A stretch of 55,556 bases of DNA from Prorocentrum cordatum (GCA_963575745.1 CAUYUJ010000152.1:62001-117556), one strand, 5' to 3'. Shown: positions 1 through 39,900, counted from the first letter of the stretch. Notes: a model not told the origin generated them from the letters alone. Numbers and translations are program-made.

Positions 1-104
1 GTAGGAGTAGTCGAAGTAGTAGTAGTAGTAGTGGTAGTAGTAGTAGTAGTAGTCGTAGTAATAGCAGTAGTAGTAGTAGCGATAGTAGTAGTAGCAGCAA
101 CAGC

Positions 105-136
<32 letters not shown>

Positions 137-270
137 AAGTAGTCGTAGTAGTAGTAGTAGTAGTAGTAGTAGTCTTACTAGTAGTAGTAGTAGTTGTAGT
201 AGTAGTAGTCGTAGTAGTAGTCGTAGTAGTATTCGTAGTAGCAATAGTATTCGTAGTAGTAGCAGTAGTC

Positions 271-311
<41 letters not shown>

Positions 312-402
312 CGTAGAAGTAGTAGTCGTAGTTTTAGCAATAGTAGCAGTAGTAGTAGTCGAAGTAGTAGTAGTAGTAGTAGTCGTAATAGTAGTAGTAG
401 TC

Positions 403-437
<35 letters not shown>

Positions 438-651
438 CGTAGTAGTAGCAGTAGTAGTAGTGGTAGTAGTAGCGATAGTAGTAGTAGTAGTAATGGTAGT
501 AATCGTATTCGTAGGAGTAGTAGTAGTAGTAGTAGTAGTGGCAGTAGTAGCAGTAGTAGTAGTAGTAGTAGTAGTCGTAGTAGTAGTAGTAGTCGTAAAA
601 TTAGTAGTAGTCGTAGTAGTAGTAGTAGTGGTAGTAGTAGTAGTAGTAGTC

Positions 652-698
<47 letters not shown>

Positions 699-900
699 CG
701 TGGTGCGTAGTAGTCTTAATAGTAGTAGTAGTAGTAGTGGTAGTAGTAGTAGGTAGAAATGATAGTGGTAGTGGTGGTGGTAGTAGTAGTAGTGGTGGTA
801 GTAGTTGCAGTCGTAGTCGTAGTCGTAGGAGTAGTCGAAGTAGTAGTAGCAACAGTAGTAGTAGTAGTAGTCGTAATAGTAGTAGTAGTCGTAGTAGTAG

Positions 901-937
<37 letters not shown>

Positions 938-1200
938 AGTAGTAGTACGTAGTAGTGTCGTCGTCGTAGTAGTAGTAGTAGTAGTTATGAATAGTATTCT
1001 TAGTCGTAGTAGCTGGCAGAGTAGTCGGTGGTTAGATAGTCGCGATAGTAGTAGTAGCAGCAAACCGCAGCGTAGTAGTAGTAGTAGTAGTACTAGTAGT
1101 AGTAAAATAGTGTAGTAGGAGTAGTAGTAGTCGTGTAGTAGTCGTAGCGTAGTAGTAGTAGTGTAGTAGTAGTAGTAGTAGTAGTACTCGTAGTATAGTG

Positions 1201-1233
<33 letters not shown>

Positions 1234-1461
1234 TAGCAGTAGTTAGTAGTAGTAGTAGTAGTAGTAGTAGCGATAGTAGTAGTAGCAGCAGAGTAAGTAG
1301 CAGTAGTAGAGTAGTAGTAGTAGGGTAGTAGTAGTAGTAGTCAGTAGGAGTAGTCGTAATCGTAGTAGTATTAGCGTAGTAGTAGTAGTATAGTAGTGAG
1401 TAGTAGTTGTAGTAGTTAGTAGTAGTAGTTAATAGTAGTTAGTAGTAGTAGTAGTAGTAGT

Positions 1462-1494
<33 letters not shown>

Positions 1495-1524
1495 GTAGTA
1501 GTAATAATAGTAGTGCTAGAAGAA

Positions 1525-1568
<44 letters not shown>

Positions 1569-1625
1569 CGTAGGAGTAGTAGTAGTAGTAGCAGTAGTAG
1601 TAGTCGTAGTCGTAGTCGTAGTAGT
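1..1625. repeat. degenerate (GTA)n/(TAG)n microsatellite field
   Basis: Near-continuous GTA units with GTC/GCA variants; explains the poly-V/S/T/Y/L ORFs. Confidence 0.97.
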
Positions 1626-1965
1626 AAAATCCGCCGGCCCCCTTGTGGGGCCACCAGGCTGTAGGCACGTGATTCGCAGTTTCCTGTACCAGTCGTAGGT
1701 TGTAGTTTCCAGTGTTACAGTTCTGCTTCTTGCTGGTTACTGTAACTAGTTGACTTCTTGCTGGTTGCTGTAACTAGTTGATTGACCGCGCGAGGGGGGG
1801 GGAGGCCCAAACAAGATTTTTAGCCTCACCTGGGCGCGTTGTCTGAATTGCTGAGGGGGCTCGAAATCGCCACCCCTCACGCAGATCCGCGGGGTCAGGG
1901 TCCAACAACACAAGGGATTTGCCACATTTCTGCAATTCGGTGCCACCCCTCACGCAGATCCGCGG

Positions 1966-6276: not shown

Positions 6277-10725
<4,449 letters not shown>

Positions 10726-17165: not shown

Positions 17166-17295
17166 CCCTCGCTTCCAAGAGATACCAAACGATGCCAAAT
17201 TGCAGCCTGTACTGGTCAGGCCGCTTGACGAGGAGGCGCGTGGTATGACTTGGTTTTGTCTGGAAGCGAACGCGGGGGAGGTAATTCACGCTCTG
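17166..17295 (+). repeat. 130-bp dispersed repeat family B, copy 1
   Basis: Ungapped match to 25373-25502, 9 mismatches by hand count. Confidence 0.95.
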
Positions 17296-17777: not shown

Positions 17778-20429
17778 TTAAACGGGTTTACCCGCAGCGG
17801 CCCGCTTGGCTCGCTCAGCTTTGCTATATTGTTTGGGCCATAAACCCTGTTGAATTCGATTAAGGTAGTCTTGCCGACTACGCTTAGGTTCACACTCCTT
17901 GGACAACTTAGCCAGCTGCTCAGCGGCAAAGCTTCCACATGTAGTACAAAACCATACCCCCAGTCCAGCATGATATTTAAGATGGTGAGACGGATGTGCA
18001 TATCCCCCCCCTACGTGCACCCGCAGCCCTGGAGGGGGTTCCCACACTACACCATCGCCCGTGGAAAGGGAAAAACACGGAGAGTCCAGCCAGGCCTTCT
18101 TCTGGGCCTGAGAGGTCGACCCCTTACAACGATTACAACTAAGACCTGACTCAGACAACTGATGCTGAGAGCTGAACATACTACAAACAGCAGGGGCAGG
18201 CGGCCTAGGTCCTGGGTGCCTCAGACGGGGCCTCGGGCCCTCAGAATTCTGCTCAGACTCTATAGCTTCTAGCGTACTCAGGAGAATTCGCATTCGTACG
18301 AGATAAGCCATGCGCTCGGTACGATATACACGTGCACGCACATCGTCCTGGACACGAAAAGTGCTCGCAGCTACACCAGCAAGCTCGTCGGCTACTGCAT
18401 TCCCTAAAATGAAGGGCACTGGGGTCCGACGCTGGCACATATCGATGGCTTCCTGATGCGAGTGCACAAAGATGACTGTGACCTTCAACTGAGACCCTCT
18501 GGCCTTCAGAACGGTGCCGATCAGAAACCAGAGGTCAGCATTTTCACCTGAGGGGCTGGCGGGGTGGCCGCTGTACCAGCCAGAACATACAGCAGCATTG
18601 TCCGTGACAAATATAACGTGGCCACTGCCGCCGCGCACCGTGAGGTACAGGGCGTATAGCTCACCACGTGCCACCGTCTGAACATCTCCTGGAAGGCCAC
18701 CCCAGATGCCGATCTCGATCATCATATCGGGGGTCAGCTCAGAGTAAACTGCCACCGCCAGGCCGACCCGCCGTAAGGCGGCGTCACTGGTGTCCTTCCC
18801 TCCGCTGGCGTCGCCGAACACGTAGGTGGGGTTGTCCTCTGAACCGTGTGGGAAACACGCCTCGTCGAAGCTGTGGATGCCGTGGCATGTCCAGTCCTCA
18901 CTCTGAATCGGCTTGGGCACCTCCAGCCATGGCTCGGGAATCAAGCCGCGCACCCAGAAGCAAGCCTCGGCCTCACGGCCAGTCTGCGCCCTGGCTGCGA
19001 ACTCATCAGACAATTCGTATATCTCATGAGGCTTGCGGCCTGTACACTCCCAAATCCTGTGAAAAGACGTCTCTTTGCATTCTTTGCACCGTGTACAAAC
19101 TTCTGAAATACTCTGCTTGGACCGCTGCTGCCGTCTAGCTCGGGGCCACGCGGCGCCTGCAGCGGAGGCCAAAAGCAGGCCTGCCAAGCGACGACCGCCT
19201 GGCGCTGCCTCCAGTTGGCGAAGCAGTTGACGATAAGAAGCATTGTGAACTCCTTGCTCCATCCCAGCACCATCGAAATGAGATGAAGCCTCAAACCACA
19301 GCTGTCTTTGGATCGTGCGGGTGAACTCTGTGAAGAACTGCTGGGGAATGTCAATGCAACTGAAACCTGTGAGATTCTCGACCTTAAACTCCCAGCTGTT
19401 GACCATGCCAGTGTTATCAGAAGGAATCTGCCACTCTGACGGACTGATGGGATCCCACCCAGCCTCAAGCAAGTACGTGATGACTGTACCTTGAGGCCCA
19501 CGGATGAAACGATGCCGTCGCTCGGGGGACATACCCCGTAGCTCCTGCGCCAGACGCCGCCACGACTGATTGATTCCAGACCTGATGTGGGGGGCGGACG
19601 TCCAGCATGACAGCCATAGCCGTAGGCAATCCACTGGCATCTTGAAAGCTGGGTCGCGCTGATGAGCGCGAAGGTCGAGCAATGTAGTTAAACACCGCCC
19701 TGACAACCTCGGTGCAACTGCATTCGCAACTTTACGTCGTACTTGCAACATCTGCTGTCCGAATAATCCGTGAATTTGATGACCATATGTGCCTGCAGCT
19801 TGGGCGCCCTGCTGCTCGAGACGGCTCGTCAAGCCGTACCGCCTCGTCGCACGGGCGTACTGCAGAACTTTCCTACTCATCCGATTGTGCTTGGCGGTCC
19901 TGGCGGTCCGAGTGGCCCTAGCATGCCGCTTGCCGCCGCCCATATCACCACCAAGGTAAGCTGTCTGGCCCACCGCGTTGATGTGATACCCCCTGAGCCG
20001 TAGACGTCGGGCGATCACCTTCGCGTCGCACATCCGCGTGCAAAGGATCACGCTCTTCGGGGAGACCTGCAGGCCAGCTGACTGGATGGCCTCGCAAGTA
20101 TCTGACAAACATTGCACCATCTTGGAAACCATGGCTCGTCTCGACGCACGATAGCTCTGGCTCAGGTCGTCAATCCAAAGCCTATGCGCCATGTCCACGT
20201 GCACCGTCGTGATCCGAGCCATGATGTGGTACGTGACGCACTTGGCAAAGCGCGTCCCAGCTCTGAGACCCTGGACGATCGATCTCGTGGGGTCGAAGGG
20301 AGCTGAGTACGCGCCTGCCTGGCGCACACAACGCGAGGCCATGCACTGCAGCAGCTCCAGCCCCAGAATCTCCGCGGGGAAATTGAGCTTGAGCGCCGTC
20401 TGACCAAGCAACAGCCACCCGATGGTGTC

Positions 20430-20506
<77 letters not shown>

Positions 20507-20538
20507 AAAAAAAAAAAAAAAAAAAAAAAAAACAAAAA

Positions 20539-20573
<35 letters not shown>

Positions 20574-23495
20574 AAAAAAAAACAAAAAAAAAAAACAAAA
20601 AAAAAAAAAAAAAAAGGAAATAAAAGCTGGCTAGGTCTATGAGGCCGTGCCCGTACTCGGTAGACAACCGCACTGCCAGCTCCTCGTCGATCGCCCGCAA
20701 GAAGACCTCGCGAATCGCCGAGTTGCCGCGGATGGCAGCATCCCAGTGCGCCTCGCACTGGTCCGTCCAGGTGCGCACGTGCACCTCGCGAGCAGCCGAC
20801 CAGAGCCGCGCCAGGTGAGGAAGCAGCCCTATCACGCGGTCCCCCTTCAGCTTCTTGGGAAGCAGGGTGCCGATGGTCAGCATGAGTTGGTGCGGCCATA
20901 CTTGTCGAGCCTCACACACGTTGAGCAGTGCTGCCAACTCATCGAGAGCTGGGCCAGGAAGGCGAGACGTGTCCAACGGTGTCAGACGATCTACCCCCAT
21001 CGCACCACACTTCATACGATCAGATGCCTCTCGCAGGGTAACACCATCAAGAGGTGGAAGAGCCTCATCTGCAACACGTTGCCGAATCTCCTGAAAAAGC
21101 CCGTGTAGCTCGCTCAACGGCTGGCCAGACGGGCCCCAAAGAGAGACCCAGTGTTTCCTTTTATGATCCATGATGTCCTTGGGGTGCACCACTGATGTGC
21201 CGTCCACCTCCAAGGTGTCGCTGACAAGTGGCTGCTCACGAAGAGCCCTGTGCAGGGTACTCACTGCAGGCGCTGTCTCAGCCCAAGTGCGGAACTCACT
21301 CATTGCCTGGCTGAGAGCACGTCGCTGCGCCCGTCTAGCGACCTTGTCAGCTGCCTCTGAGACAATCTTGAGCTCCTCCAAGGAACTCTCACCGGTACGA
21401 CCGAGAAACTGCAGCCAAAAGTCCCAAGAGTAGCGATCAGCTGGACGAACCACCTGGTGGCCGCGCTCGGGGGCCTCCTCCCTGAGACGTGCCACTGCAT
21501 CCACCAGGAGGAACTGCTGCTTGATGCCTGTATCCTTATCACGATATCTCGCCAGCGCACTAAGCACAGTAGACACACGCGTCCACCAACTGGCAATCTT
21601 ATCCCTGAGTGCAACCTCTCTTGCAGGTTTAGCCTCCTGAACTTCTGTCTCAAGAAACTCGACAGCGTCGCCGCGCGATCTGCCGAGGGCGACCTGACCG
21701 TGATGGGAGTGTACGGTCGACTCCACTGCCTGGAACCAGGCCGCGAACAGGGCTGAAACGAGGCCTGAATCGCTGGAGCAGAGCCTAAAGGCTACGGAGG
21801 AGGCAACAGCAGGAGCAGGAGGGCAGGCAGACGCAGGCAGAAACCCTACATCTTTCCGCTGTTCCGTCCACACACACAGAAACAAACGAAAATAACAAAA
21901 AAGAACAAAGTATACATAGACAAAAGAAAAAAATAATAAACACCCTCACGGAACCAAACAAAAAACAAAACCAAAAAAAAAAAAAAAGAAAAAACCACAC
22001 AAACAGTAAAAAGACATAAAAAGAGAAAAACAAGAGTCCACAGCTGCTCTGAAATCATGAAACTCACAGCTGGAGAAACGGGGGACCCTGAACTCTCCTC
22101 TGGTGGTGCGGACCCTGACTCGACAGGGGCGGTGCACGGGGTGGGGGTTTCATGCTGGACTGAATTCGACTGAGGCTGATCGACCACAGGGAAGGCAGGG
22201 GCGGTCGGGGCAGCCAGTCCGAAGTTGGCCTCGTGGATCCACGGGTCCTCCTCACTGCTGTCGGAGTCGGGGTCCTCACCACCGAAACCTGTTTCCGCCT
22301 CGCTGCCTACTCTACTGATGGGATCATGCGAAACACAACCAGTATGCTCAACCTTGCTACTGCTACAAAGTCCGAGCTGCTCACTAAACCACTCACGCAC
22401 TTTACAATCACGACGCTCGCGTGCAACCTGCTGCGCAACCCTACGCTGAGCCTTGGCCTTACTAGCTTTGGACCCTGGGATCGGCTGCTTGGAAGGCCGA
22501 GCTACAATTGGCAACTGCTTAGGGAGAGCGAGCACACGAGTGAGCATCTGACTGCCTGAGGCGACTATCTCAACGCTAAGACCGATGTGTGGCCTCCAGG
22601 GAACGTCAACAACAGCCGAAACAGATCTCAAATATGGCCTCGCAGCTTCATTGAATACTACAAAGTCAATGTGCGAAGATTTTTGCTTGCCGCCTGGTGT
22701 ACAGGTAAACTCGGCGTCGGAGGTCCAGACAGATCCTCCAACTCGCGAAAGAAAGTCCGACCTTCTAAGGTCGGCTGGGGAAACATTCCAGTCAGCCAGA
22801 ACTAGCCACGGCAAATGGATCGCCGTCAGCACGCTGCCTAGCTTGGCGAAACGATTCACATTCTGATGTGTGAAGCCCATGCCGGAGAGACCGTAGTAAA
22901 TGAACACAGCGAGCGTGAAGCCCTTCATGTCTAAAAGGCATGGAAGAAACCCATCCAGGACTCCTCCACGCTCAGCCTGAAGTTGGGGACTCATGAGGGC
23001 GGCGTCGAGCATGCGAACAGGCCGATGATTGCGTGCCAGCAGCCACTCACCGCCTTCATTGGAATGCTGCTGATCAGCCTTGGCATAGCGAGACTTGGGC
23101 CTGGCACCATTGTGGAGCAGGCGCAGTGATGAACTTTTAGCTTTGCCAATCCATTTCCGAGTATCTTGCTTGCTAACATGCGTCTCGCAGACGCCCAGGT
23201 AGTCGTGCGTGTCGCTGAGCTCGGTCAAGCGCCCCCAGGCCTTGTCGCCCATGCACGTCACGTTACTGAAGAAAATCTTTGCAGTGAGGTCTGGCTGCTG
23301 CTGCGCACCCTGCTCACTGCTCCCCGAAATAGTAGAGGTGGTAGAAGTAGGCGCCGTACTGCTCGAGCCCTCTGAAGCAGTCGTGGCACCCACCTCGCTT
23401 GGTGTGGCCGTAGATGTACTGGTATCAAGCGCTGTAGTGGTGGCGGCGTCCGAGCCCACAGCGGCGCTGGCGCTGGTGAGCTCCGCCGTGGATAG
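17778..23495 (-). CDS. LINE ORF2/pol: AP endonuclease, reverse transcriptase, CCHC zinc finger, RNase H, C-terminal Cys/His motifs (interrupted by two A-rich inserts)
   Basis: APE: FFSNV, GVCETH, LADWN, SHIDF, RPH. RT: LPKK..GDRVIGL, IDLASF/YD, IVQG, WIDD (20166-20177), YLG. Zn finger: CTRC..ETSFHRIWEC. RNase H: FGDAS, QTVARGEL, VTDN, NADLW, HSH, GNAVADELA. Track ORFs 21846-23459, 20182-21885 and 17778-20585 join into 1785 codons after removing 170+190 bp. Confidence 0.93.
20431..20620 (+). other. 190-bp poly(A)-like insert in RT motif A, bounded by TAAAA direct repeats
   Basis: TAAAA at 20431 and 20621; removal yields GAC CTA GCC AGC TTT TAC GAC (DLASFYD) on the minus strand. Confidence 0.9.
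21866..22035 (+). other. 170-bp A-rich insert in the ORF2 linker, bounded by GTCCACA direct repeats
   Basis: GTCCACA at 21866 and 22036; removal yields EQLWTEQRK in frame. Confidence 0.88.
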
Positions 23496-24656
23496 TCACT
23501 CCTTCTTGGCAGCTGCAGGGCCGCCAGCGGCAGCAGCTGTGGGCACAGGATCCGCAGCCGCACCTCCGCCCGCGGGGGCAGCTGAGGCTGCACCTGCGCC
23601 CTTGCCGTCGCTCTTGCCCTTGAGGTCCGCTGCGGCCTGCGCCTTCTGGACCGCCTCGAACTTGGCCTGTGAGAGCCTCGCCGCCTCGCGCCTGATCTCC
23701 TCCGACGGTGGCTCAGCGGCTGGGGCAGGCCCCGCTGTGTCAGCAACTGTAGGCTCCGTCGTCGGCTCCTTGGCCTGTGTGGCCGCGTCCTGGCCCTCTT
23801 GCGTCTTCCTCTTTTTGCCCATGCGCTCCTCCACGTCTTTCTTGACCGAGTCCAGCTTGGCCATGAACGCCTGGAGCTCCGAGTCCTTCGCGGCAAAGGA
23901 CTCCTGCATACCCTGCAGCTCCTTCTTGAGATTGCGGAGGGCGATCTTGTCCGACTCCTCGCACTCCCACTCCTCAAACTTGTCGAAAACCTCGGGGTTC
24001 ATGTGAACCCGAAAGTGCATGCCCTTGCCCTGCTCAGCCGTGTCAACAGCTGCCCTGACGCCCTCTGCTTGAGCAAGGGCACGCGTAGCACTCTTCTTAT
24101 CCGCTTCAGCTTTGGCTAGCGCCAGGGCGGCCTCCTGCTCCTTGGCCTCGGCGCTCAGGAGCTGGCGCCTGAGGCGGAGCACCTGGCTCACCATCTGCTC
24201 GTGCCGATGGCTCGCCTGCCTCCAGGCGCCGTCGGCGCGCTTCACCGACTCCACGGCTGAGAACTCGGCTGCCGCAGCCTGAGTCTTCAGCTTCGTGCGC
24301 TGCTCGGTCAGGACTGCCTTCAGCTCGGGGTCGTTGCTGCACTCGGCAGCCTTGGCCAACAGTCCGTCGAGGTTCTTGGTGGCCTGGTCCTTGGCGCGCC
24401 GCCTCCCTGGGCTGCGATGGCGAGGGCCTTGGCCTGGAGTACCTGCCTCACTCCCCTGGTCGTCGATGTGCTCCACGTCGCCGTCGAAAGAGACGCGCCT
24501 ATCAACGGACGGCGCTCTAGACTGGGACGGGTCGTAGAGCTTCACCTGCTTGCCACAGGTCAGGCACTTCTTGTCGTTGGCCATCAGCTTGGAATTGTAC
24601 TCGCATGTCTTGCAGTGAATGCACCTGCTCCAGGGGTACTTGGATGCACCCCCCAT
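23496..24656 (-). CDS. LINE ORF1 (386 aa; N-terminal CxxC...CxxC, predicted coiled coils, Ala-rich tail)
   Basis: ATG at 24656 (MGGASKYPWSRCIHCKTC...KKCLTCG). Helical A/E/K/Q-rich middle. TGA at 23498-23496 directly upstream of ORF2. Confidence 0.85.
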   Translation of the reverse strand: MGGASKYPWSRCIHCKTCEYNSKLMANDKKCLTCGKQVKLYDPSQSRAPSVDRRVSFDGDVEHIDDQGSEAGTPGQGPRHRSPGRRRAKDQATKNLDGLLAKAAECSNDPELKAVLTEQRTKLKTQAAAAEFSAVESVKRADGAWRQASHRHEQMVSQVLRLRRQLLSAEAKEQEAALALAKAEADKKSATRALAQAEGVRAAVDTAEQGKGMHFRVHMNPEVFDKFEEWECEESDKIALRNLKKELQGMQESFAAKDSELQAFMAKLDSVKKDVEERMGKKRKTQEGQDAATQAKEPTTEPTVADTAGPAPAAEPPSEEIRREAARLSQAKFEAVQKAQAAADLKGKSDGKGAGAASAAPAGGGAAADPVPTAAAAGGPAAAKKE

Positions 24657-25300
24657 CGCGAAATCTCCTGTCTTCGTTGACGCCTCCTGCTGTGGGCCCA
24701 GCAGGGAGCGAAATCCCCCAAGCACTGCGTGGAAGTGCAGGAGAGGCCGAAACACGTGCCCTGCGCACGGGGGCGAGGGGCTTGGTGCTCCAGCCCAAAT
24801 TGCTTGAGGGAGGAGGAGGAGGAGGAGGGTGTGAGGAGGAGGCAGTAGGAGGAGGGAGGAGGGGGATGATGGTGGAGGAAGGAGGGGAGGATGAGGCGGG
24901 GGGCGGGGAGGAGGAGGATGAGCAAGGAGGAGGAGGGGGTGAGGAAGAAGAGAGGTGGGGCGAGGACAGGGCAGAAGCGGAAGCCGATAGGCACCAGGAG
25001 GAGGGCGGAGGGCGAGGGAGGAGGAGGAGGAGGAGGCGTAGGAGGGAGGAAGGAGGAGGAGGTCGAGGAGGGCGGGGGGGTGGCGGGAGGAGGCAGGAAG
25101 GAGCAAGGGGAGGAGGCGGGGAGGGCCAGGGATTGGACGGGAGGACGACACGGCACGCGGAGCCGCGGCGGCGGCCCGCCTGCCGGCCTCGCGGCGCGGG
25201 TGCCAGGGGCGTCGCCGCCGCCCTCGCGGTCACCCGGTGGTGCTGCAGCCGCAGGCGCGGCACGCGGCCCTGCGCGGGAGGCGGCCTCCTCCTCCTCCTG

Positions 25301-25372: not shown

Positions 25373-25502
25373 CCCTCGCTTCCAAGAGATACCAAACGAT
25401 GCCTAACTGCGGCCTGTACGGGTCAGGCCGCTTGACGAGGAGGCGCGTGGTATGGCTTGGTTTTGCCTGGCAGCGAAAGCGGGGTAGGTAATTCACGCTC
25501 TG
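25373..25502 (+). repeat. 130-bp dispersed repeat family B, copy 2
   Basis: Match to 17166-17295. Confidence 0.95.
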
Positions 25503-27892: not shown

Positions 27893-28190
27893 GCCCTATA
27901 GCCTTCCTTATAGCTCTATAGCCCAATGGCCCATCTAGCCTTACAGCCCAATAACCCAATATAGCTCTATGGCCTTATAGACCTAGAGCCCTAGAGCCCT
28001 ATAGCTCTAGAGCCCTATAGCCCTAAAGCCCTATAACTCTATAGCCCTATAGCCCTATAGCCCTATAGTCCTATAGCCCTATAGCCCTATAGCCCTATAG
28101 TCCTATAGCCCAATAGCCCAATAGTCCTATAGCCATATAGCCCATATAGCCCTATAACCCCAGAGCCCATAGTCCTAGAGCCCCATAGCC
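27893..28190. repeat. (GCCCTATA)n 8-bp tandem repeat, preceded by (GGGTGCCC)-like units
   Basis: Direct reading. Confidence 0.9.
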
Positions 28191-29441: not shown

Positions 29442-29850
<409 letters not shown>

Positions 29851-37689: not shown

Positions 37690-38879
37690 ATTCCTTCGAA
37701 ACGTAAGACCCCGAATGCTCCTCGATGGTCCCTTCTGGCACAAGATGCGCACGTCCGAGCCATGCCAAGCAAGAGATCCTTTTTTTTCAGCGTCATTCCT
37801 CGACTCGGATCGAGGAGGCCTGCGCCACAGCCTGAGGCGGACCGACGAGTCTATTCCCCGCGCCTGAAAAGGAAGGAGTCCAGCGGGAGACACCTCCCCT
37901 GACCCCAGATCCCTCCTCTTCCGTGACTCTCCACGGGACCCCGCACCGCGGGAAAATACAAAGTTGGAAGGTCTGGCCGAACGTACCCGAAAGGAACTCC
38001 ACCCCTGGCTACTGTGGCCGGCGAACCAAGCGGCAGCGGATCGAGGAGGCCTCGAGCTCGGAGCCCTCCTCCTCCTCCGCGGGCGCAGGCCGCGCGAGCG
38101 AGCGCCCACCGCCGGCCCCGAAGGCCGGCCCCACGAGGGCAGCGCGGGCGGGCTGGGGGCTCGGAGAGAGGTCCGAGCCGCGGCGTCGGCGACGTTCATT
38201 CGCTCCTCCTCCTCCTCCTCCTCCTCCTCCTCCTCCTCCTCCTCCTCCTCCTCCTCCTCCCCACCCTCCCCTCCCCTCCCCTGCCCTCCCCTCCTTCCCT
38301 CTCTCCCTCCCTCCCTCCCCTCGACGGCATACTGCTGTGAAAATAAATCGTAGGAGTGGGGGCCAAATCAACCCCCAGGTTGTTTTGGCCCTCTCTCTCG
38401 TTAACGAGGCAGCGGGAGCTGGATTCGGCGGTGGACAAACCTGCCTTTCGTAAGCCACCCTTGAGTGAAAGCGGCCTGGGACCGTGACCGACGGACTTGG
38501 GCCCGCAAAAATGACGGCCGCGACGCCCACTCGCGAACCGAAAACGGCCAATTCGCTAATCGACGTGTCGGGGTAGGAGGTCTGTTCACCCCCGGTGGAT
38601 AGCTGGAGCTGGACGGTAAGTGGAGTCGGAGCCATGCGGCCGTATCCAGGGAGGGCGCGGGAGCAGAGAGCGCAGCCGAGGGCTCATCGACCTCACTCTC
38701 GCGAGCCCGAGCTGCTCATCAGCACAGGGCGTGGAGGTCTCCTTGACCCGCCGAAGGGTGCGCCAGAAGCGCCTCCGGCGCAGCCAGGCAGGCTCGTGCC
38801 CCGCTGTCAGCGGGAGCCTCCTCGTCCTCCTCTTCCTCCCCATCTGGGCGTCGTTGTCGCCACCGTTGTCCGTTGACCG

Positions 38880-38947
38880 CCGTGCGCCGTGGCCGTGGCC
38901 GTCGCCGCCGCCGCCGCCGTCGCCGTCGCCGTTGCCGCCGCCGCCGC

Positions 38948-38979
<32 letters not shown>

Positions 38980-39208
38980 TCCTCGTCATGATCGTCGCCA
39001 TCTCCGTCGCCTCCGATGGCGTCGGTGCCGCCGCCGTCGCCGCCGCCGTCCGTCCGATCGTCCGTCCGTCGACGTCATATTCAGCGTCGTCGTCGTCGCC
39101 GTGGTCGTCGTCCTCGTCGTGCGCCGCCGCCGCCGTCGTGGTCGTCGTCGTCGTCGTCACCGTCGCCGTCGCGGTCGCCGTCACCGTCGTCGTCGCCGTC
39201 GCCGTTGC

Positions 39209-39281
<73 letters not shown>

Positions 39282-39283
39282 CT

Positions 39284-39368
<85 letters not shown>

Positions 39369-39590
39369 CCGTCGTCATCGTCATCGTCGTCGTCGCCGCC
39401 GTCGTCGTCGTCGCCGCCGTCGTCGCCGTCGCCGTCGCCGTCGGCGCCGCTGTCGTCGTCGTCGTCGTCGCCGTCGTCATCGCCGTCGTATTCGTCGTCT
39501 GTCGTCGTAGTCAGCGTCGCCATCCCCGTCGCTTCCGATGGCGTCGGTGCCGCCGCCGTCGCCGCCGTCCGTCGGTCGGTCCGTCCGACG

Positions 39591-39633
<43 letters not shown>

Positions 39634-39689
39634 GCGCCGCCGCCGTCGCCTCCGTCGACGTCGCCGTCGCCGCCGCCGTCGTCGTCGTC

Positions 39690-39722
<33 letters not shown>

Positions 39723-39756
39723 GCCTCCGTCGACGTCGCCGTTGCCGTCGCGGTCG

Positions 39757-39846
<90 letters not shown>

Positions 39847-39900
39847 CCGTCGCCGTCGTCGTCGTCGTCGCTTTTGTCGTGGTTGTCCCCGTCGTCGCCG
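38880..39900. repeat. (CGT)n/(CGCCGT)n microsatellite with an internal ~130-bp duplicated block
   Basis: GCCATC.CCGTCGC.TCCGATGGCGTCGGTGCC block at ~38997 and ~39518. Confidence 0.9.

What the first reader, a model, noticed from the sequence alone, without database searches (positions are those of the whole stretch)
23460..23510. LINE ORF1 and ORF2 are in frame across a single TGA in a TGA-CTA readthrough context
Seen: the minus strand reads GCC AAG AAG GAG TGA CTA TCC ACG..., and the frame stays open into the endonuclease. The first ATG after the stop (MGDKAW) lies after the conserved FFSNV motif, so ordinary AUG initiation would give a truncated endonuclease. Established: UGA-CUA is a classic leaky-stop context (alphavirus nsP3/nsP4, several cellular readthrough genes), whereas well-studied LINEs mostly use re-initiation or overlapping stop-start coupling. 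Inference: this element makes a gag-pol-like ORF1-ORF2 fusion (about 2170 aa after removing the inserts) by programmed readthrough.
Basis: partly seen in the sequence, partly recalled or inferred. Interest (0 to 1): 0.85.

Follow-up and report, generated by a model that had tools for sequence, protein, structure and literature searches.

The report
LINE with conserved leaky UGA stop
A jumping gene (LINE) of a GC-rich microbial eukaryote has its two genes in one reading frame, separated by a single UGA stop in a virus-like "leaky stop" setting that a distant relative also keeps, so its enzyme is probably made as a rare ORF1-ORF2 fusion, much as retroviruses make Gag-Pol.

Summary
On the minus strand, ORF1 (24656-23499, 386 codons) ends at TGA 23498-23496. 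The same frame runs on through a 74-codon Ser/Thr linker into an APE-type endonuclease. The first ATG (23252-23250) lies after the first beta-strand and its Asn.

The TGA is not a private mutation. A 1323-nt contig from a sequencing run, 98.8% identical, keeps it. One metagenome contig (L001; ORF1 about 60% identical, synonymous sites saturated) has the same layout: one in-frame TGA, then CTA TC, no in-frame ATG before the endonuclease. The flanking codons differ.

About 155 nt after the stop fold into two hairpins in both sequences: 36 pairs, 7 compensatory, 0 broken, 7-nt spacer. Identity is equal at all three codon positions. This matches the type II readthrough signal (UGA-CUA plus 3' stem-loop) of alphaviruses and some plant viruses. 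More distant relatives are annotated as one fused ORF1-endonuclease protein.

Best reading: programmed UGA readthrough (about 0.6). Rivals: AUG-independent reinitiation, or splicing out of the stop.

Limits: only two independent DNA sequences and no RNA or protein data. This copy's ORF2 is broken by two T-rich inserts. Readthrough was already proposed, by inference, for Paramecium LINEs.

The parts
23499..24656 (-). ORF1, 386 codons. It has an N-terminal Cys-rich knuckle (CxxCxxC...CxxC), long helices, a KKRK motif, a conserved C-terminal helix (EAARLSQAKFEAV) and a disordered tail that runs up to the stop.
   Evidence: The model (mean pLDDT 69) shows helices at 134-197, 234-286 and 318-347, and pLDDT below 50 for residues 351-386. 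Against L001, pN is 0.251 and pS 0.652.
23496..23498 (-). The in-frame TGA that ends ORF1; proposed leaky (readthrough) stop.
   Evidence: L001 has TGA at the same place. The contig called record 6 of run X1 keeps it.
23491..23495 (-). CTA TC directly 3' of the stop. UGA-CUA is the type II readthrough context.
   Evidence: the 8-mer TGACTATC is identical in the window and L001, while the preceding codons differ (AAG AAG GAG versus GAT GGG CTG). CTA makes up 12 of 185 Leu codons in the window element and 3 of 62 in L001. The motif is described in PMC3159437 and PMC13517186 (passages).
23444..23488 (-). Hairpin 1, positions +11 to +55 counted from the U of UGA, leaving a 7-nt spacer after the stop codon.
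   Evidence: MFE of the 60-nt stretch is -26.5 kcal/mol (z -1.81) in the window and -29.0 (z -4.80) in L001; 13 pairs, 4 changed on both sides, 0 broken.
23344..23396 (-). Hairpin 2 of the conserved block of about 155 nt that follows the stop.
   Evidence: over the whole block there are 36 pairs, all 72 cells paired and 7 pairs changed on both sides; 2 of 500 shuffles reach this.
23274..23495 (-). Ser/Thr/Ala-rich linker of 74 codons, open in the ORF1 frame, with no ATG in any frame.
   Evidence: Indels against L001 in the first ~150 nt are 3, 6 and 3 nt.
22542..23285 (-). APE-type (EEP-fold) endonuclease domain of ORF2. Strand 1 is TAKIFFSN (23285-23262).
   Evidence: LINE-1 EN 2v0r/1vyb, TRAS1 1wdu, R1Bm 2ei9. 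223 of 258 residues are identical to L001.
23250..23252 (-). First ATG after the stop (MGDKAW), which lies inside the endonuclease fold.
   Evidence: In relatives this position holds M, L, I or W, so it is not a conserved start.
21859..22067 (-). Insert 1: 209 nt, T/G-rich, begins GTGAGT and ends CAG (looks like an intron). It shifts the frame by 2.
   Evidence: The relative P0024 reads straight across this site.
20620..21858 (-). ORF2 segment 2: 413 codons, from the spacer to RT motif A.
   Evidence: colinear with the intact relative P0086, residues 447-850 (E 2e-30).
20430..20619 (-). Insert 2: 190 nt, of which 180 are T. It has no GT-AG ends and splits RT motif A between ...SFY and DTI....
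   Evidence: P0086 residues 850 and 851 are adjacent across this site.
17778..20429 (-). ORF2 segment 3: 883 codons plus the TAA stop. It holds the rest of RT, a Cys-rich region, RNase H (about 18821-18360) and a C-terminal Cys/His region.
   Evidence: E 2e-86 to P0086, which scores 34.4 bits for Pfam RNase_H (cut-off 25.8) and 21.2 bits for RVT_1 (cut-off 29.6).
25373..25502 (-). Upstream copy of a 130-nt direct repeat that brackets the element.
   Evidence: 121 of 130 positions identical to 17166-17295.
17166..17295 (-). Downstream copy of the 130-nt direct repeat.

Best explanation
The window holds one copy of a multi-copy non-LTR retrotransposon. Its layout is ORF1, then UGA, then ORF2 (APE endonuclease, RT, RNase H). 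In this family ORF2 has no start codon of its own. Most ribosomes stop at the ORF1 UGA and release ORF1 protein. A small fraction decode the UGA with a near-cognate tRNA. Two things favour this: the 3' context CUA, and an RNA structure that begins 7 nt after the stop (hairpin 1, followed by hairpin 2, within about 155 conserved nt). Those ribosomes continue through a disordered Ser/Thr linker into the endonuclease, RT and RNase H. The result is an ORF1-ORF2 fusion of about 2160 residues in a fixed low ratio to ORF1, as in retroviral Gag and Gag-Pol. Shown here: the layout, its conservation in a diverged family, the conserved motif, the predicted structure with compensatory changes, and the endonuclease fold. 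Inferred: that readthrough really happens, how efficient it is, and that the fusion assembles with free ORF1 through the ORF1 helices. The copy in the window is itself disabled by two T-rich inserts in ORF2, unless they are spliced out.
For: 1. ORF1 and ORF2 share one frame, separated by one TGA, with no in-frame ATG for 81 codons. The first ATG lies inside the endonuclease fold.
2. The stop is not private to this copy. Contig record 6 of run X1 (1323 nt, 16 differences) covers 23235-24557. 15 of its 16 differences are visible in the printed table and none lies at 23491-23498.
3. L001 was the only DNA relative found (1 of 598 pattern matches confirmed). It shares 218 of 358 ORF1 residues and 223 of 258 endonuclease residues, with pS 0.65 and 0.63. 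Its ORF1 ends ...GAT GGG CTG TGA CTA TCA..., ORF2 is in the same frame, and there is no in-frame ATG in its 108-codon linker.
4. CTA is a rare Leu codon in both elements: 12 of 185 and 3 of 62.
5. Hairpin 1 has 13 pairs, 4 of them compensatory and none broken. The whole block has 36 pairs with 72 of 72 cells paired and 7 compensatory pairs. 2 of 500 shuffles reach this. Controls with the 3' partners slid by 1-3 columns pair only 27-49% of cells. The L001 hairpin has z -4.80 and is the most stable of 780 windows after correction for GC.
6. In the first 48 aligned codons after the stop, identity is 31, 30 and 31 of 48 at codon positions 1, 2 and 3. In ORF1 it is 258, 273 and 177 of 358. Indels are 3, 6 and 3 nt. 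This pattern fits an RNA-level constraint on a stretch that is still kept in frame.
7. ORF1-only relatives end shortly after the conserved C-terminal helix (P0002, P0006, P0010, P0014, P0015, P0036, P0023). More distant relatives are single fused proteins, with the ORF1-like part running into the endonuclease (P0064, P0051, P0081, P0083, P0128). hhalign against the ORF1 profile gives probabilities of 96.4%, 86.7% and 95.8% for the three tested.
8. UGA-CUA or UGA-CGG followed by a stem-loop after a 7-9-nt spacer, with 100-200 nt of raised conservation, is the published alphavirus and plant-virus signal (PMC3159437 passages; PMC13517186 table rows for SINV, ONNV and PSIV).
9. TGA is not a sense codon here: none of the other 2158 codons is TGA, and ORF2 ends in TAA.
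Against: Only two independent DNA sequences carry the junction, and the structure was derived from those same two. The window's own hairpin is unremarkable for such GC-rich sequence: z is -1.81, 10 of 200 shuffles fold at least as well, and its GC-adjusted rank is 180 of 833. There are no RNA, ribosome or peptide data. In the read-laying table 379 rows were hidden, so 1 of the 16 differences of record 6 is unaccounted for. Some related families have a Met a few residues upstream of the endonuclease (P0086, P0008, P0009, P0022, P0025), so other ways of expressing ORF2 exist in this clade. The DNA of the fused relatives was not seen and the gene caller that produced them is unknown. The conserved 9-mer G-TGACTATC can also be read as a 5' splice site, GTGACT. 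A conserved GCAG lies 141 nt (window) or 129 nt (L001) downstream, in phase. SART1 stop-start coupling also needs a downstream structure (PMC5972666 passages). ORF2 of this copy is interrupted.
Confidence: 0.6

Rival explanations
1. Termination followed by reinitiation without AUG. Ribosomes stop at the UGA, stay on the RNA and restart at a non-AUG codon in the linker or at the stop itself, producing a separate ORF2 protein. This would resemble what has been proposed for mammalian LINE-1 and, with an AUG, for SART1.
For: This is the mechanism documented or proposed for the best-studied LINEs. SART1 coupling needs a structure downstream of the stop (PMC5972666 passages). The linker has no ATG in any frame in the window, and only one, out of frame, in L001, so scanning ribosomes would not be diverted. 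That L1 ORF2 can start without an AUG is recalled from Alisch et al. 2006; only the review's summary was seen.
Against: No AUG overlaps or lies near the stop. No near-cognate start codon is conserved in position between the window and L001: ACG is codon 3 and GTG codon 13 in the window, while L001 has GCG and GTT there (read from the alignment). Reinitiation needs neither a shared frame nor an open frame right up to the stop, nor the specific CUA, yet all three are conserved. Fused relatives exist.
Confidence: 0.17
2. The stop sits inside a small intron. GTGACT at the last base of ORF1 would be a 5' splice site, and the conserved GCAG 141 nt (window) or 129 nt (L001) downstream would be the acceptor. 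Spliced RNA would then encode an ORF1-ORF2 fusion and unspliced RNA would encode ORF1 only.
For: G-TGACTATC and GCAG|TACGGC are both conserved. Both candidate introns are in phase. The same copy carries a 209-nt insert with GTGAGT...CAG ends. Identity in this stretch shows no codon periodicity.
Against: There is no pyrimidine tract before the candidate acceptor (50% pyrimidines in the 20 nt upstream in both). An intron need not have a length divisible by 3 or indels of 3, 6 and 3 nt, nor stay open in frame, yet this stretch does all three. The conserved GCAG is explained as the 3' arm of hairpin 2. Retrotransposition of spliced RNA would delete the stretch. No contig that skips exactly this stretch was reported: the one joint nearby skips 23308-23492 and keeps TGACTA.
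Confidence: 0.07
3. The TGA is a private nonsense mutation in a decayed copy of a single-ORF element.
For: The copy does carry two disabling inserts, and distant relatives are single fused ORFs.
Against: The sister contig keeps the TGA. L001 has TGA at the same place. Seven ORF1-only relatives end in the same region. Apart from the inserts, the copy has no stop or frameshift in 2158 codons.
Confidence: 0.02
4. UGA is decoded as an amino acid by design, either through a reassigned genetic code or as selenocysteine.
For: UGA is the codon used for both kinds of recoding, and a hairpin just 3' of a UGA resembles selenocysteine redefinition elements (recalled, not from a call).
Against: None of the other 2158 codons of the element, and none of the other 798 in L001, is TGA, against 45 and 12 TGG codons. 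No Rfam family, SECIS included, reaches its gathering score anywhere in the window.
Confidence: 0.02

Closest known systems
Alphavirus nsP3/nsP4 opal readthrough (Sindbis, VEEV); type II readthrough signals of tobra-, furo- and pecluviruses
   Same: A UGA followed by CUA (SINV reads UGA CUA ACC, ONNV UGA CUA GAC). A stem-loop begins 7-9 nt after the stop. Conservation is raised for 100-200 nt. The polymerase is made as a minor C-terminal extension (PMC3159437, PMC13517186, passages).
   Different: This is a cellular retrotransposon, not an RNA virus. There is no sequence similarity beyond the motif. Two compact hairpins are predicted here, rather than one long-range stem. Efficiency has not been measured.
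Gammaretrovirus Gag-Pol (MuLV): UAG readthrough with a 3' pseudoknot
   Same: The structural protein and the RT are in one frame, separated by one stop. An RNA structure lies about 8 nt downstream. The ratio of the two products is set by readthrough (PMC3159437 passages).
   Different: The stop here is UGA-CUA rather than UAG-G. Hairpins are predicted rather than a pseudoknot. There is no protease to release the enzyme from the fusion. The element has no LTRs.
Paramecium Group 3 non-LTR retrotransposons
   Same: [quoted passage not shown]
   Different: They belong to a different host lineage and RT clade. The passages I saw mention neither a context motif nor a 3' structure. Ciliates use UGA as their only stop codon (recalled). 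The supplements were not opened.
SART1 (UAAUG coupling) and mammalian LINE-1 (unconventional termination-reinitiation)
   Same: They are bicistronic LINE RNAs in which ORF2 is made at a low level by ribosomes that have already translated ORF1. SART1 also needs a structure downstream of the stop (PMC5972666 passages).
   Different: Those elements restart at or near an AUG and make a separate ORF2 protein. Their ORFs need not share a frame. Here there is no AUG and the frame is shared.

Membership tests
APE-type non-LTR retrotransposon (LINE) | An apurinic-endonuclease-like (EEP-fold) domain at the N-terminus of ORF2 | tested here: met
   The model has pLDDT 87. The best Foldseek hits are LINE-1 EN, full-length ORF2p, TRAS1 EN and R1Bm EN at E 1e-12 to 1e-9. 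By sequence alone the evidence is weak: Pfam Exo_endo_phos scores 12.9 bits in relative P0086, and the PDB profile search gave only E 0.34.
APE-type non-LTR retrotransposon (LINE) | A reverse transcriptase domain | tested here: inconclusive
   The window's own segments match no relevant Pfam family, even at E up to 1. They align colinearly with the intact relative P0086 (E 2e-30 and 2e-86). P0086 scores 21.2 bits for RVT_1, below the cut-off of 29.6. The motifs F-Y-D-T-I and W-I-D-D-L were read by eye.
APE-type non-LTR retrotransposon (LINE) | RNase H after RT, as in the I, Tad1, LOA and Ingi clades and some L1 clades (clade list recalled) | tested here: met
   P0086 scores 34.4 bits for RNase_H against a cut-off of 25.8, and P0114 scores 29.0. 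The window stretch VFGDASGG...ADELAG aligns to that part of P0086. The RT clade was not determined because no reference set was at hand.
APE-type non-LTR retrotransposon (LINE) | Many dispersed, diverged copies, with no LTRs and no integrase | tested here: inconclusive
   139 contig pieces of run X1 lie on 2.6 kb of the element, 78 of them less than 90% alike. No second copy is present in the window. A 130-nt direct repeat brackets the element; its meaning is open. No poly(A) tail was seen: (TCC)n follows the ORF2 stop. Target-site duplications were not looked for.
Type II programmed readthrough signal (UGA-CUA or UGA-CGG with a 3' stem-loop) | A UGA stop followed by CUA or CGG, conserved among relatives | tested here: met
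   TGA CTA TC in both the window and L001; kept in the sister contig. This amounts to two independent sequences.
Type II programmed readthrough signal (UGA-CUA or UGA-CGG with a 3' stem-loop) | A downstream ORF in the same frame, open from the stop onward, encoding an essential enzyme that has no start codon of its own | tested here: met
Type II programmed readthrough signal (UGA-CUA or UGA-CGG with a 3' stem-loop) | A conserved stem-loop starting about 7-9 nt after the stop, supported by compensatory changes | tested here: met
   Caveats: there are only two sequences, the structure was derived from them, and the stability of the window's own hairpin is not exceptional.
Type II programmed readthrough signal (UGA-CUA or UGA-CGG with a 3' stem-loop) | Raised conservation at synonymous sites for 100-200 nt 3' of the stop | tested here: inconclusive
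   Third-position identity is 31 of 48 after the stop, against 177 of 358 in ORF1 and 147 of 258 in the endonuclease. pS is 0.41 against 0.63-0.65. The sample is small.
Type II programmed readthrough signal (UGA-CUA or UGA-CGG with a 3' stem-loop) | Measured readthrough above background | not testable with these tools
   This needs a reporter assay, ribosome profiling or mass spectrometry.
Termination-reinitiation coupling (SART1 / calicivirus type) | A restart AUG overlapping the stop or within a few nucleotides of it | tested here: not met
   There is no ATG in any frame in the 222 nt after the stop in the window, and none in frame in the 324 nt of L001.
Selenocysteine recoding | A SECIS element in the transcript | tested here: not met
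   No Rfam family reaches its gathering score anywhere in the window. A divergent SECIS could have been missed.

The most novel reading that the evidence does not exclude
This LINE family may keep spliceosomal introns and use them for expression. Insert 1 (GTGAGT...CAG, phase 0) would be a real intron, shared with a sister family whose predicted protein P0018 ends at the same site. The 141-nt (window) or 129-nt (L001) stretch GTGACT...GCAG that holds the ORF1 stop would be a second, alternatively spliced intron. Splicing rather than the ribosome would then set the ratio of ORF1 to ORF1-ORF2 fusion, and unspliced RNA would be the transposition template. A less radical novel reading is my best explanation itself: a clade of protist LINEs that has converged on the alphavirus-type UGA-CUA-plus-stem-loop cassette and makes its RT only as an ORF1-ORF2 fusion.
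Probability: 0.07. Interest if true: 0.8.

Novelty: new variant of a known kind. Interest (0 to 1): 0.62.

Why it matters
How LINEs translate ORF2 from a bicistronic RNA is a long-standing question, and no general answer has emerged. The documented cases are reinitiation (L1), stop-start coupling (SART1), 2A peptides and frameshifts. This family offers a compact, testable cassette of about 160 nt: UGA-CUA plus two hairpins. The cassette looks like the type II readthrough signals of RNA viruses but sits in a cellular retrotransposon of a microbial eukaryote. Relatives exist in all three states: fused, separated by a stop, and with their own AUG.

If readthrough is confirmed, three things follow:
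- A LINE would be shown to use Gag/Gag-Pol logic, with its RT tethered to ORF1 by a disordered linker of about 110 residues.
- The cassette would be a natural readthrough element for a poorly studied eukaryotic lineage.
- It would be a case of convergence between viruses and retrotransposons.

The practical point for annotation is that ORF2 of such elements has no start codon, so gene callers truncate it at an internal Met. Seven of the 150 listed relatives start exactly there.

Tried and rejected
**Searches that gave nothing or could not be run**
- Whole-genome search: no genome is held for this window.
- Self-comparison of the window: no second copy. Only the 130-nt repeat was found.
- More DNA relatives:
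  - Metagenome contigs gave 1 locus.
  - Viral contigs gave none in 2 scans.
  - Genome contigs gave none in 2 scans.
  - Four alignments were too diverse for the pattern search and were replaced by closer ones.
- Word-indexed protein search: 3 weak hits for linker plus endonuclease and 2 hits for ORF1. Neither added a junction.
The sources and gene callers of the fused relatives therefore stay unknown.
- Earlier findings of this scan: nothing in 3 look-ups.
- RNA evidence: no RNA holder was listed among the sequencing runs.

**Sequencing runs**
- Runs X2, X3 and X5 have no contig across 23491-23498, so they say nothing about the stop.
- Record 5 of X1 lies on 23493-23536 and again on 23160-23307, with a different linker between. 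This hints at a third variant that keeps TGACTA, but its letters were not shown.

**Weak or uninformative results**
- Pfam on the window's own pieces: no relevant hit.
- PDB profile search with the endonuclease alignment: only non-significant EEP-fold hits (E 0.34).
- P0123 and P0033 seemed to span the junction, but they look frameshifted or read on into unrelated sequence and were not used.
- The linker being open in frame is weak evidence on its own, because other frames are also open here in this GC-rich DNA.

**Literature**
- Searches for LINE readthrough were (one search was malformed). Only the Paramecium proposal turned up.
- Zorro3 has multiple stops between its ORFs (PMC7175516 passages).
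- The recoding review covers frameshifting and bypassing for HeT-A, TART and L1 (PMC5009743 passages; only the first 300,000 characters are held).
- Subscription journals are not covered by these searches.

Full report
**1. What is at the coordinates**

The minus strand reads ...GCC AAG AAG GAG TGA CTA TCC ACG GCG GAG..., with the TGA at 23498-23496. The stop-to-stop frame 23496-25229 and the frame 21846-23495 are the same frame and directly adjacent. ORF1 starts at ATG 24656 and has 386 codons.

After the stop come 74 codons rich in Ser, Thr and Ala, followed by KIFFSNVTCMGDKAW. There is no in-frame ATG in those 74 codons, and no ATG in any frame in those 222 nt. The first ATG is at 23252-23250.

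**2. What the element is**

Downstream of the linker, a model built on 23 aligned relatives (pLDDT 87, pTM 0.82) has the EEP/APE fold. Its best PDB matches are the LINE-1 endonuclease, full-length human ORF2p, TRAS1 EN, R1Bm EN and APE1, at E 1e-12 to 1e-9. The first strand of the fold is TAKIFFSN, model residues 21-28, with pLDDT near 97. The Met of MGDKAW comes four residues later. In relatives that position holds M, L, I or W, so it is not a conserved start. Initiation there would remove strand 1 and its terminal Asn. The equivalence of that Asn to L1 EN Asn14 is recalled, not aligned here.

Pfam finds nothing relevant in the window's own pieces. The rest of ORF2 nevertheless aligns colinearly with an intact 1889-residue relative, P0086, at E 2e-30 and 2e-86. 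P0086 scores 34.4 bits for RNase_H (above the cut-off), 21.2 bits for RVT_1 (below the cut-off) and weakly for Exo_endo_phos. The architecture is therefore APE, RT, a Cys-rich region, RNase H and a C-terminal Cys/His region. That is a divergent APE-type non-LTR retrotransposon. I could not assign an RT clade.

ORF1 has an N-terminal Cys knuckle, long helices, a KKRK motif, a conserved C-terminal helix and a disordered tail of 36 residues before the stop.

The family has many diverged copies. 139 contig pieces of run X1 lie on 2.6 kb of the element, and 78 of them are under 90% alike.

**3. State of this copy**

ORF2 is interrupted twice.
- Insert 1 (22067-21859, 209 nt) is T/G-rich, begins GTGAGT and ends CAG.
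- Insert 2 (20619-20430, 190 nt, of which 180 are T) lies between ...SFY and DTI.... These residues are adjacent in P0086 (850 and 851) and lie in RT motif A.

With both inserts left out, the four segments have 386+476+413+883 = 2158 codons and no stop other than the ORF1 TGA. As it stands, this copy cannot make the whole fusion unless the inserts are removed from the RNA.

**4. Is the TGA private to this copy?**

No.
- A 1323-nt contig of run X1 (record 6, depth 15.1) covers 23235-24557 with 16 differences. 15 of the 16 can be located in the printed table and none falls at 23491-23498. 379 table rows were hidden, so one difference is unaccounted for.
- A search of 1.84 billion representative proteins with ORF1-X-endonuclease (P0001) gave 851 hits. 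ORF1-like proteins at 30-62% identity end roughly 27-45 residues after the conserved helix EAxRLSxAKF. These are P0002, P0006, P0010, P0014, P0015, P0036 and P0023. P0019 and P0046 run somewhat further. P0033 runs about 190 residues further, into unrelated sequence. P0016 lacks a clean motif.

A stop at the end of ORF1 is therefore a feature of the whole family.

**5. The one DNA relative**

Only one related locus could be fetched: L001, a 2620-nt metagenome contig. Against the window:

| Region | Identical residues | pS | pN |
|---|---|---|---|
| ORF1 | 218 of 358 | 0.652 | 0.251 |
| Endonuclease | 223 of 258 | 0.632 | 0.081 |

Synonymous sites are essentially saturated.

The L001 junction reads ...GAT GGG CTG TGA CTA TCA GCG TCG.... 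ORF2 follows in the same frame. The 108-codon linker has no in-frame ATG, and the first Met is again that of CMGDKAW. The 8-mer TGACTATC is thus identical while the codons before it are unrelated. CTA is a rare Leu codon in both elements: 12 of 185 and 3 of 62.

**6. RNA structure after the stop**

Both sequences fold into a hairpin that starts after a 7-nt spacer. For the 60-nt stretch the MFE is -26.5 kcal/mol in the window (z -1.81; 10 of 200 shuffles fold as well) and -29.0 in L001 (z -4.80; 0 of 200).

| Region tested | Pairs | Both sides changed | One side changed | Broken | Shuffles reaching it |
|---|---|---|---|---|---|
| 71 columns (hairpin 1) | 13 | 4 | 1 | 0 | 19 of 500 |
| 165 columns (both hairpins) | 36 (72 of 72 cells paired) | 7 | 7 | 0 | 2 of 500 |

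With the 3' partners slid by 1-3 columns, only 27-49% of cells pair and 0-1 pairs are compensatory.

Two caveats apply. The structure was derived from these same two sequences. In a sliding scan the L001 hairpin ranks first of 780 windows after GC correction, but the window's ranks only 180th of 833.

The first 48 aligned codons after the stop are equally conserved at all three codon positions (31, 30 and 31 of 48), unlike ORF1 (258, 273 and 177 of 358) and the endonuclease (221, 243 and 147 of 258). pS is 0.41 there against 0.63-0.65 elsewhere. The indels are 3, 6 and 3 nt. This is the pattern expected of an RNA element overlapping a stretch that must stay in frame. After about 155 nt the alignment breaks down.

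**7. Comparison with known signals**

[quoted passage not shown] A stem begins 7-9 nt after the stop. Conservation at synonymous sites is raised for 100-200 nt. The stem raises readthrough up to about 10-fold.

The table in PMC13517186 lists SINV as UGA CUA ACC, ONNV as UGA CUA GAC and PSIV as UGA CUA UGU.

The junction studied here fits this description point by point.

**8. The wider clade**

More distant relatives are predicted as one protein, with a Cys knuckle and helices running into the endonuclease without a stop. These are P0064, P0051, P0081, P0083 and P0128. The N-terminal parts of the three tested match the ORF1 profile: hhalign probability 96.4% (E 1.1e-9), 86.7% (E 4.3e-6) and 95.8% (E 7.5e-9). 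I could not see their DNA or learn which gene caller produced them.

Other relatives have a Met a few residues before the endonuclease (P0086, P0008, P0009, P0022, P0025).

Seven of the 150 listed hits begin exactly at the MGDKAW Met: P0017, P0020, P0034, P0039, P0080, P0100 and P0138. Four of these were read. This is what a gene caller does when there is no earlier ATG.

The clade thus seems to include fused, stop-separated and AUG-bearing arrangements. A fused ORF1-endonuclease protein is evidently tolerated.

**9. Mechanism and rivals**

- **Programmed UGA readthrough, giving a minor ORF1-ORF2 fusion (about 0.6).** This is the best-supported reading.
- **AUG-independent reinitiation (about 0.17).** This remains possible, and SART1 coupling also uses a downstream structure (PMC5972666 passages). 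But it does not explain the shared frame, the frame being open right up to the stop, or the CUA. No near-cognate start codon is conserved in position.
- **Splicing out of the stop (about 0.07).** G-TGACTATC could be a 5' splice site, and a conserved GCAG lies 141 or 129 nt downstream in phase. Against this, there is no pyrimidine tract, the stretch keeps a length divisible by 3 with in-frame indels, and the GCAG is the 3' arm of hairpin 2.
- **Private mutation, reassigned code or selenocysteine (about 0.02 each).** The evidence against these is.

**10. Novelty**

Seven literature searches found one precedent. [quoted passage not shown] I found no LINE for which a specific readthrough context and a conserved 3' structure were described. 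The library does not cover subscription journals.

I rate this a new variant of a known kind. It is well supported by comparison of only two independent sequences, and no expression data are available.

Noticed in passing
window 21859-22067 (minus strand): A 209-nt T/G-rich insert in ORF2 has canonical intron ends (GTGAGT...CAG) in phase 0. Leaving it out restores the frame exactly. A sister-family protein at 80% identity (P0018) ends at the same site, whereas the more distant P0024 reads straight across it. It could be an intron gained by this LINE subfamily, or an intron-like insertion.
   Followed up: partly
window 20430-20619 (minus strand): A 190-nt run, of which 180 are T (poly-A on the + strand), is inserted exactly between two residues of RT motif A that are adjacent in the intact relative P0086. 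It has no GT-AG ends and no obvious target-site duplication. Apart from this insert and the 209-nt one, the 2158-codon reading frame has no defect.
   Followed up: partly
window 25373-25502 and 17166-17295: A 130-nt direct repeat (121 of 130 identical) brackets the element 8207 nt apart. The upstream copy is followed by (AGG)n. It could be a terminal module of the LINE, the 3' end of a neighbouring truncated copy, or a separate small repeat.
   Followed up: no
window about 24660-24800 versus L001 about 60-220: About 150 nt upstream of the ORF1 ATG are conserved between the window and L001. The conservation is at the DNA level, because the similar translations fall in different frames relative to ORF1. 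A CCT/proline-codon-rich low-complexity stretch lies upstream in both. This is probably a conserved 5' UTR or promoter.
   Followed up: no
window 1-1626, 6306-10725, 38878-39871, 29482-29850, 27909-28190; N gap 1966-2065: The window is packed with long microsatellites: (GTA)n of 1.6 and 4.4 kb (which explains the low-GC, strongly G-skewed blocks), (CGCCGT)n of 1 kb, (AG)n, and 35 copies of TATAGCCC. There is also a 100-N assembly gap.
   Followed up: no
protein P0023 (776 aa, from the representatives search): An ORF1 homologue forms the C-terminal half of a predicted protein whose N-terminal half looks like a multi-pass membrane (ion-channel-like) protein. It is probably a chimeric gene model across a LINE insertion.
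   Followed up: no
L001 1327-1650 versus window 23274-23495: The linker between the stop and the endonuclease differs in length (108 versus 74 codons) and is barely conserved as protein. In both it stays Ser/Thr/Ala-rich and open. Together with the 36-residue disordered ORF1 tail, it would form a flexible tether of about 110 residues or more in the fusion protein.
   Followed up: partly
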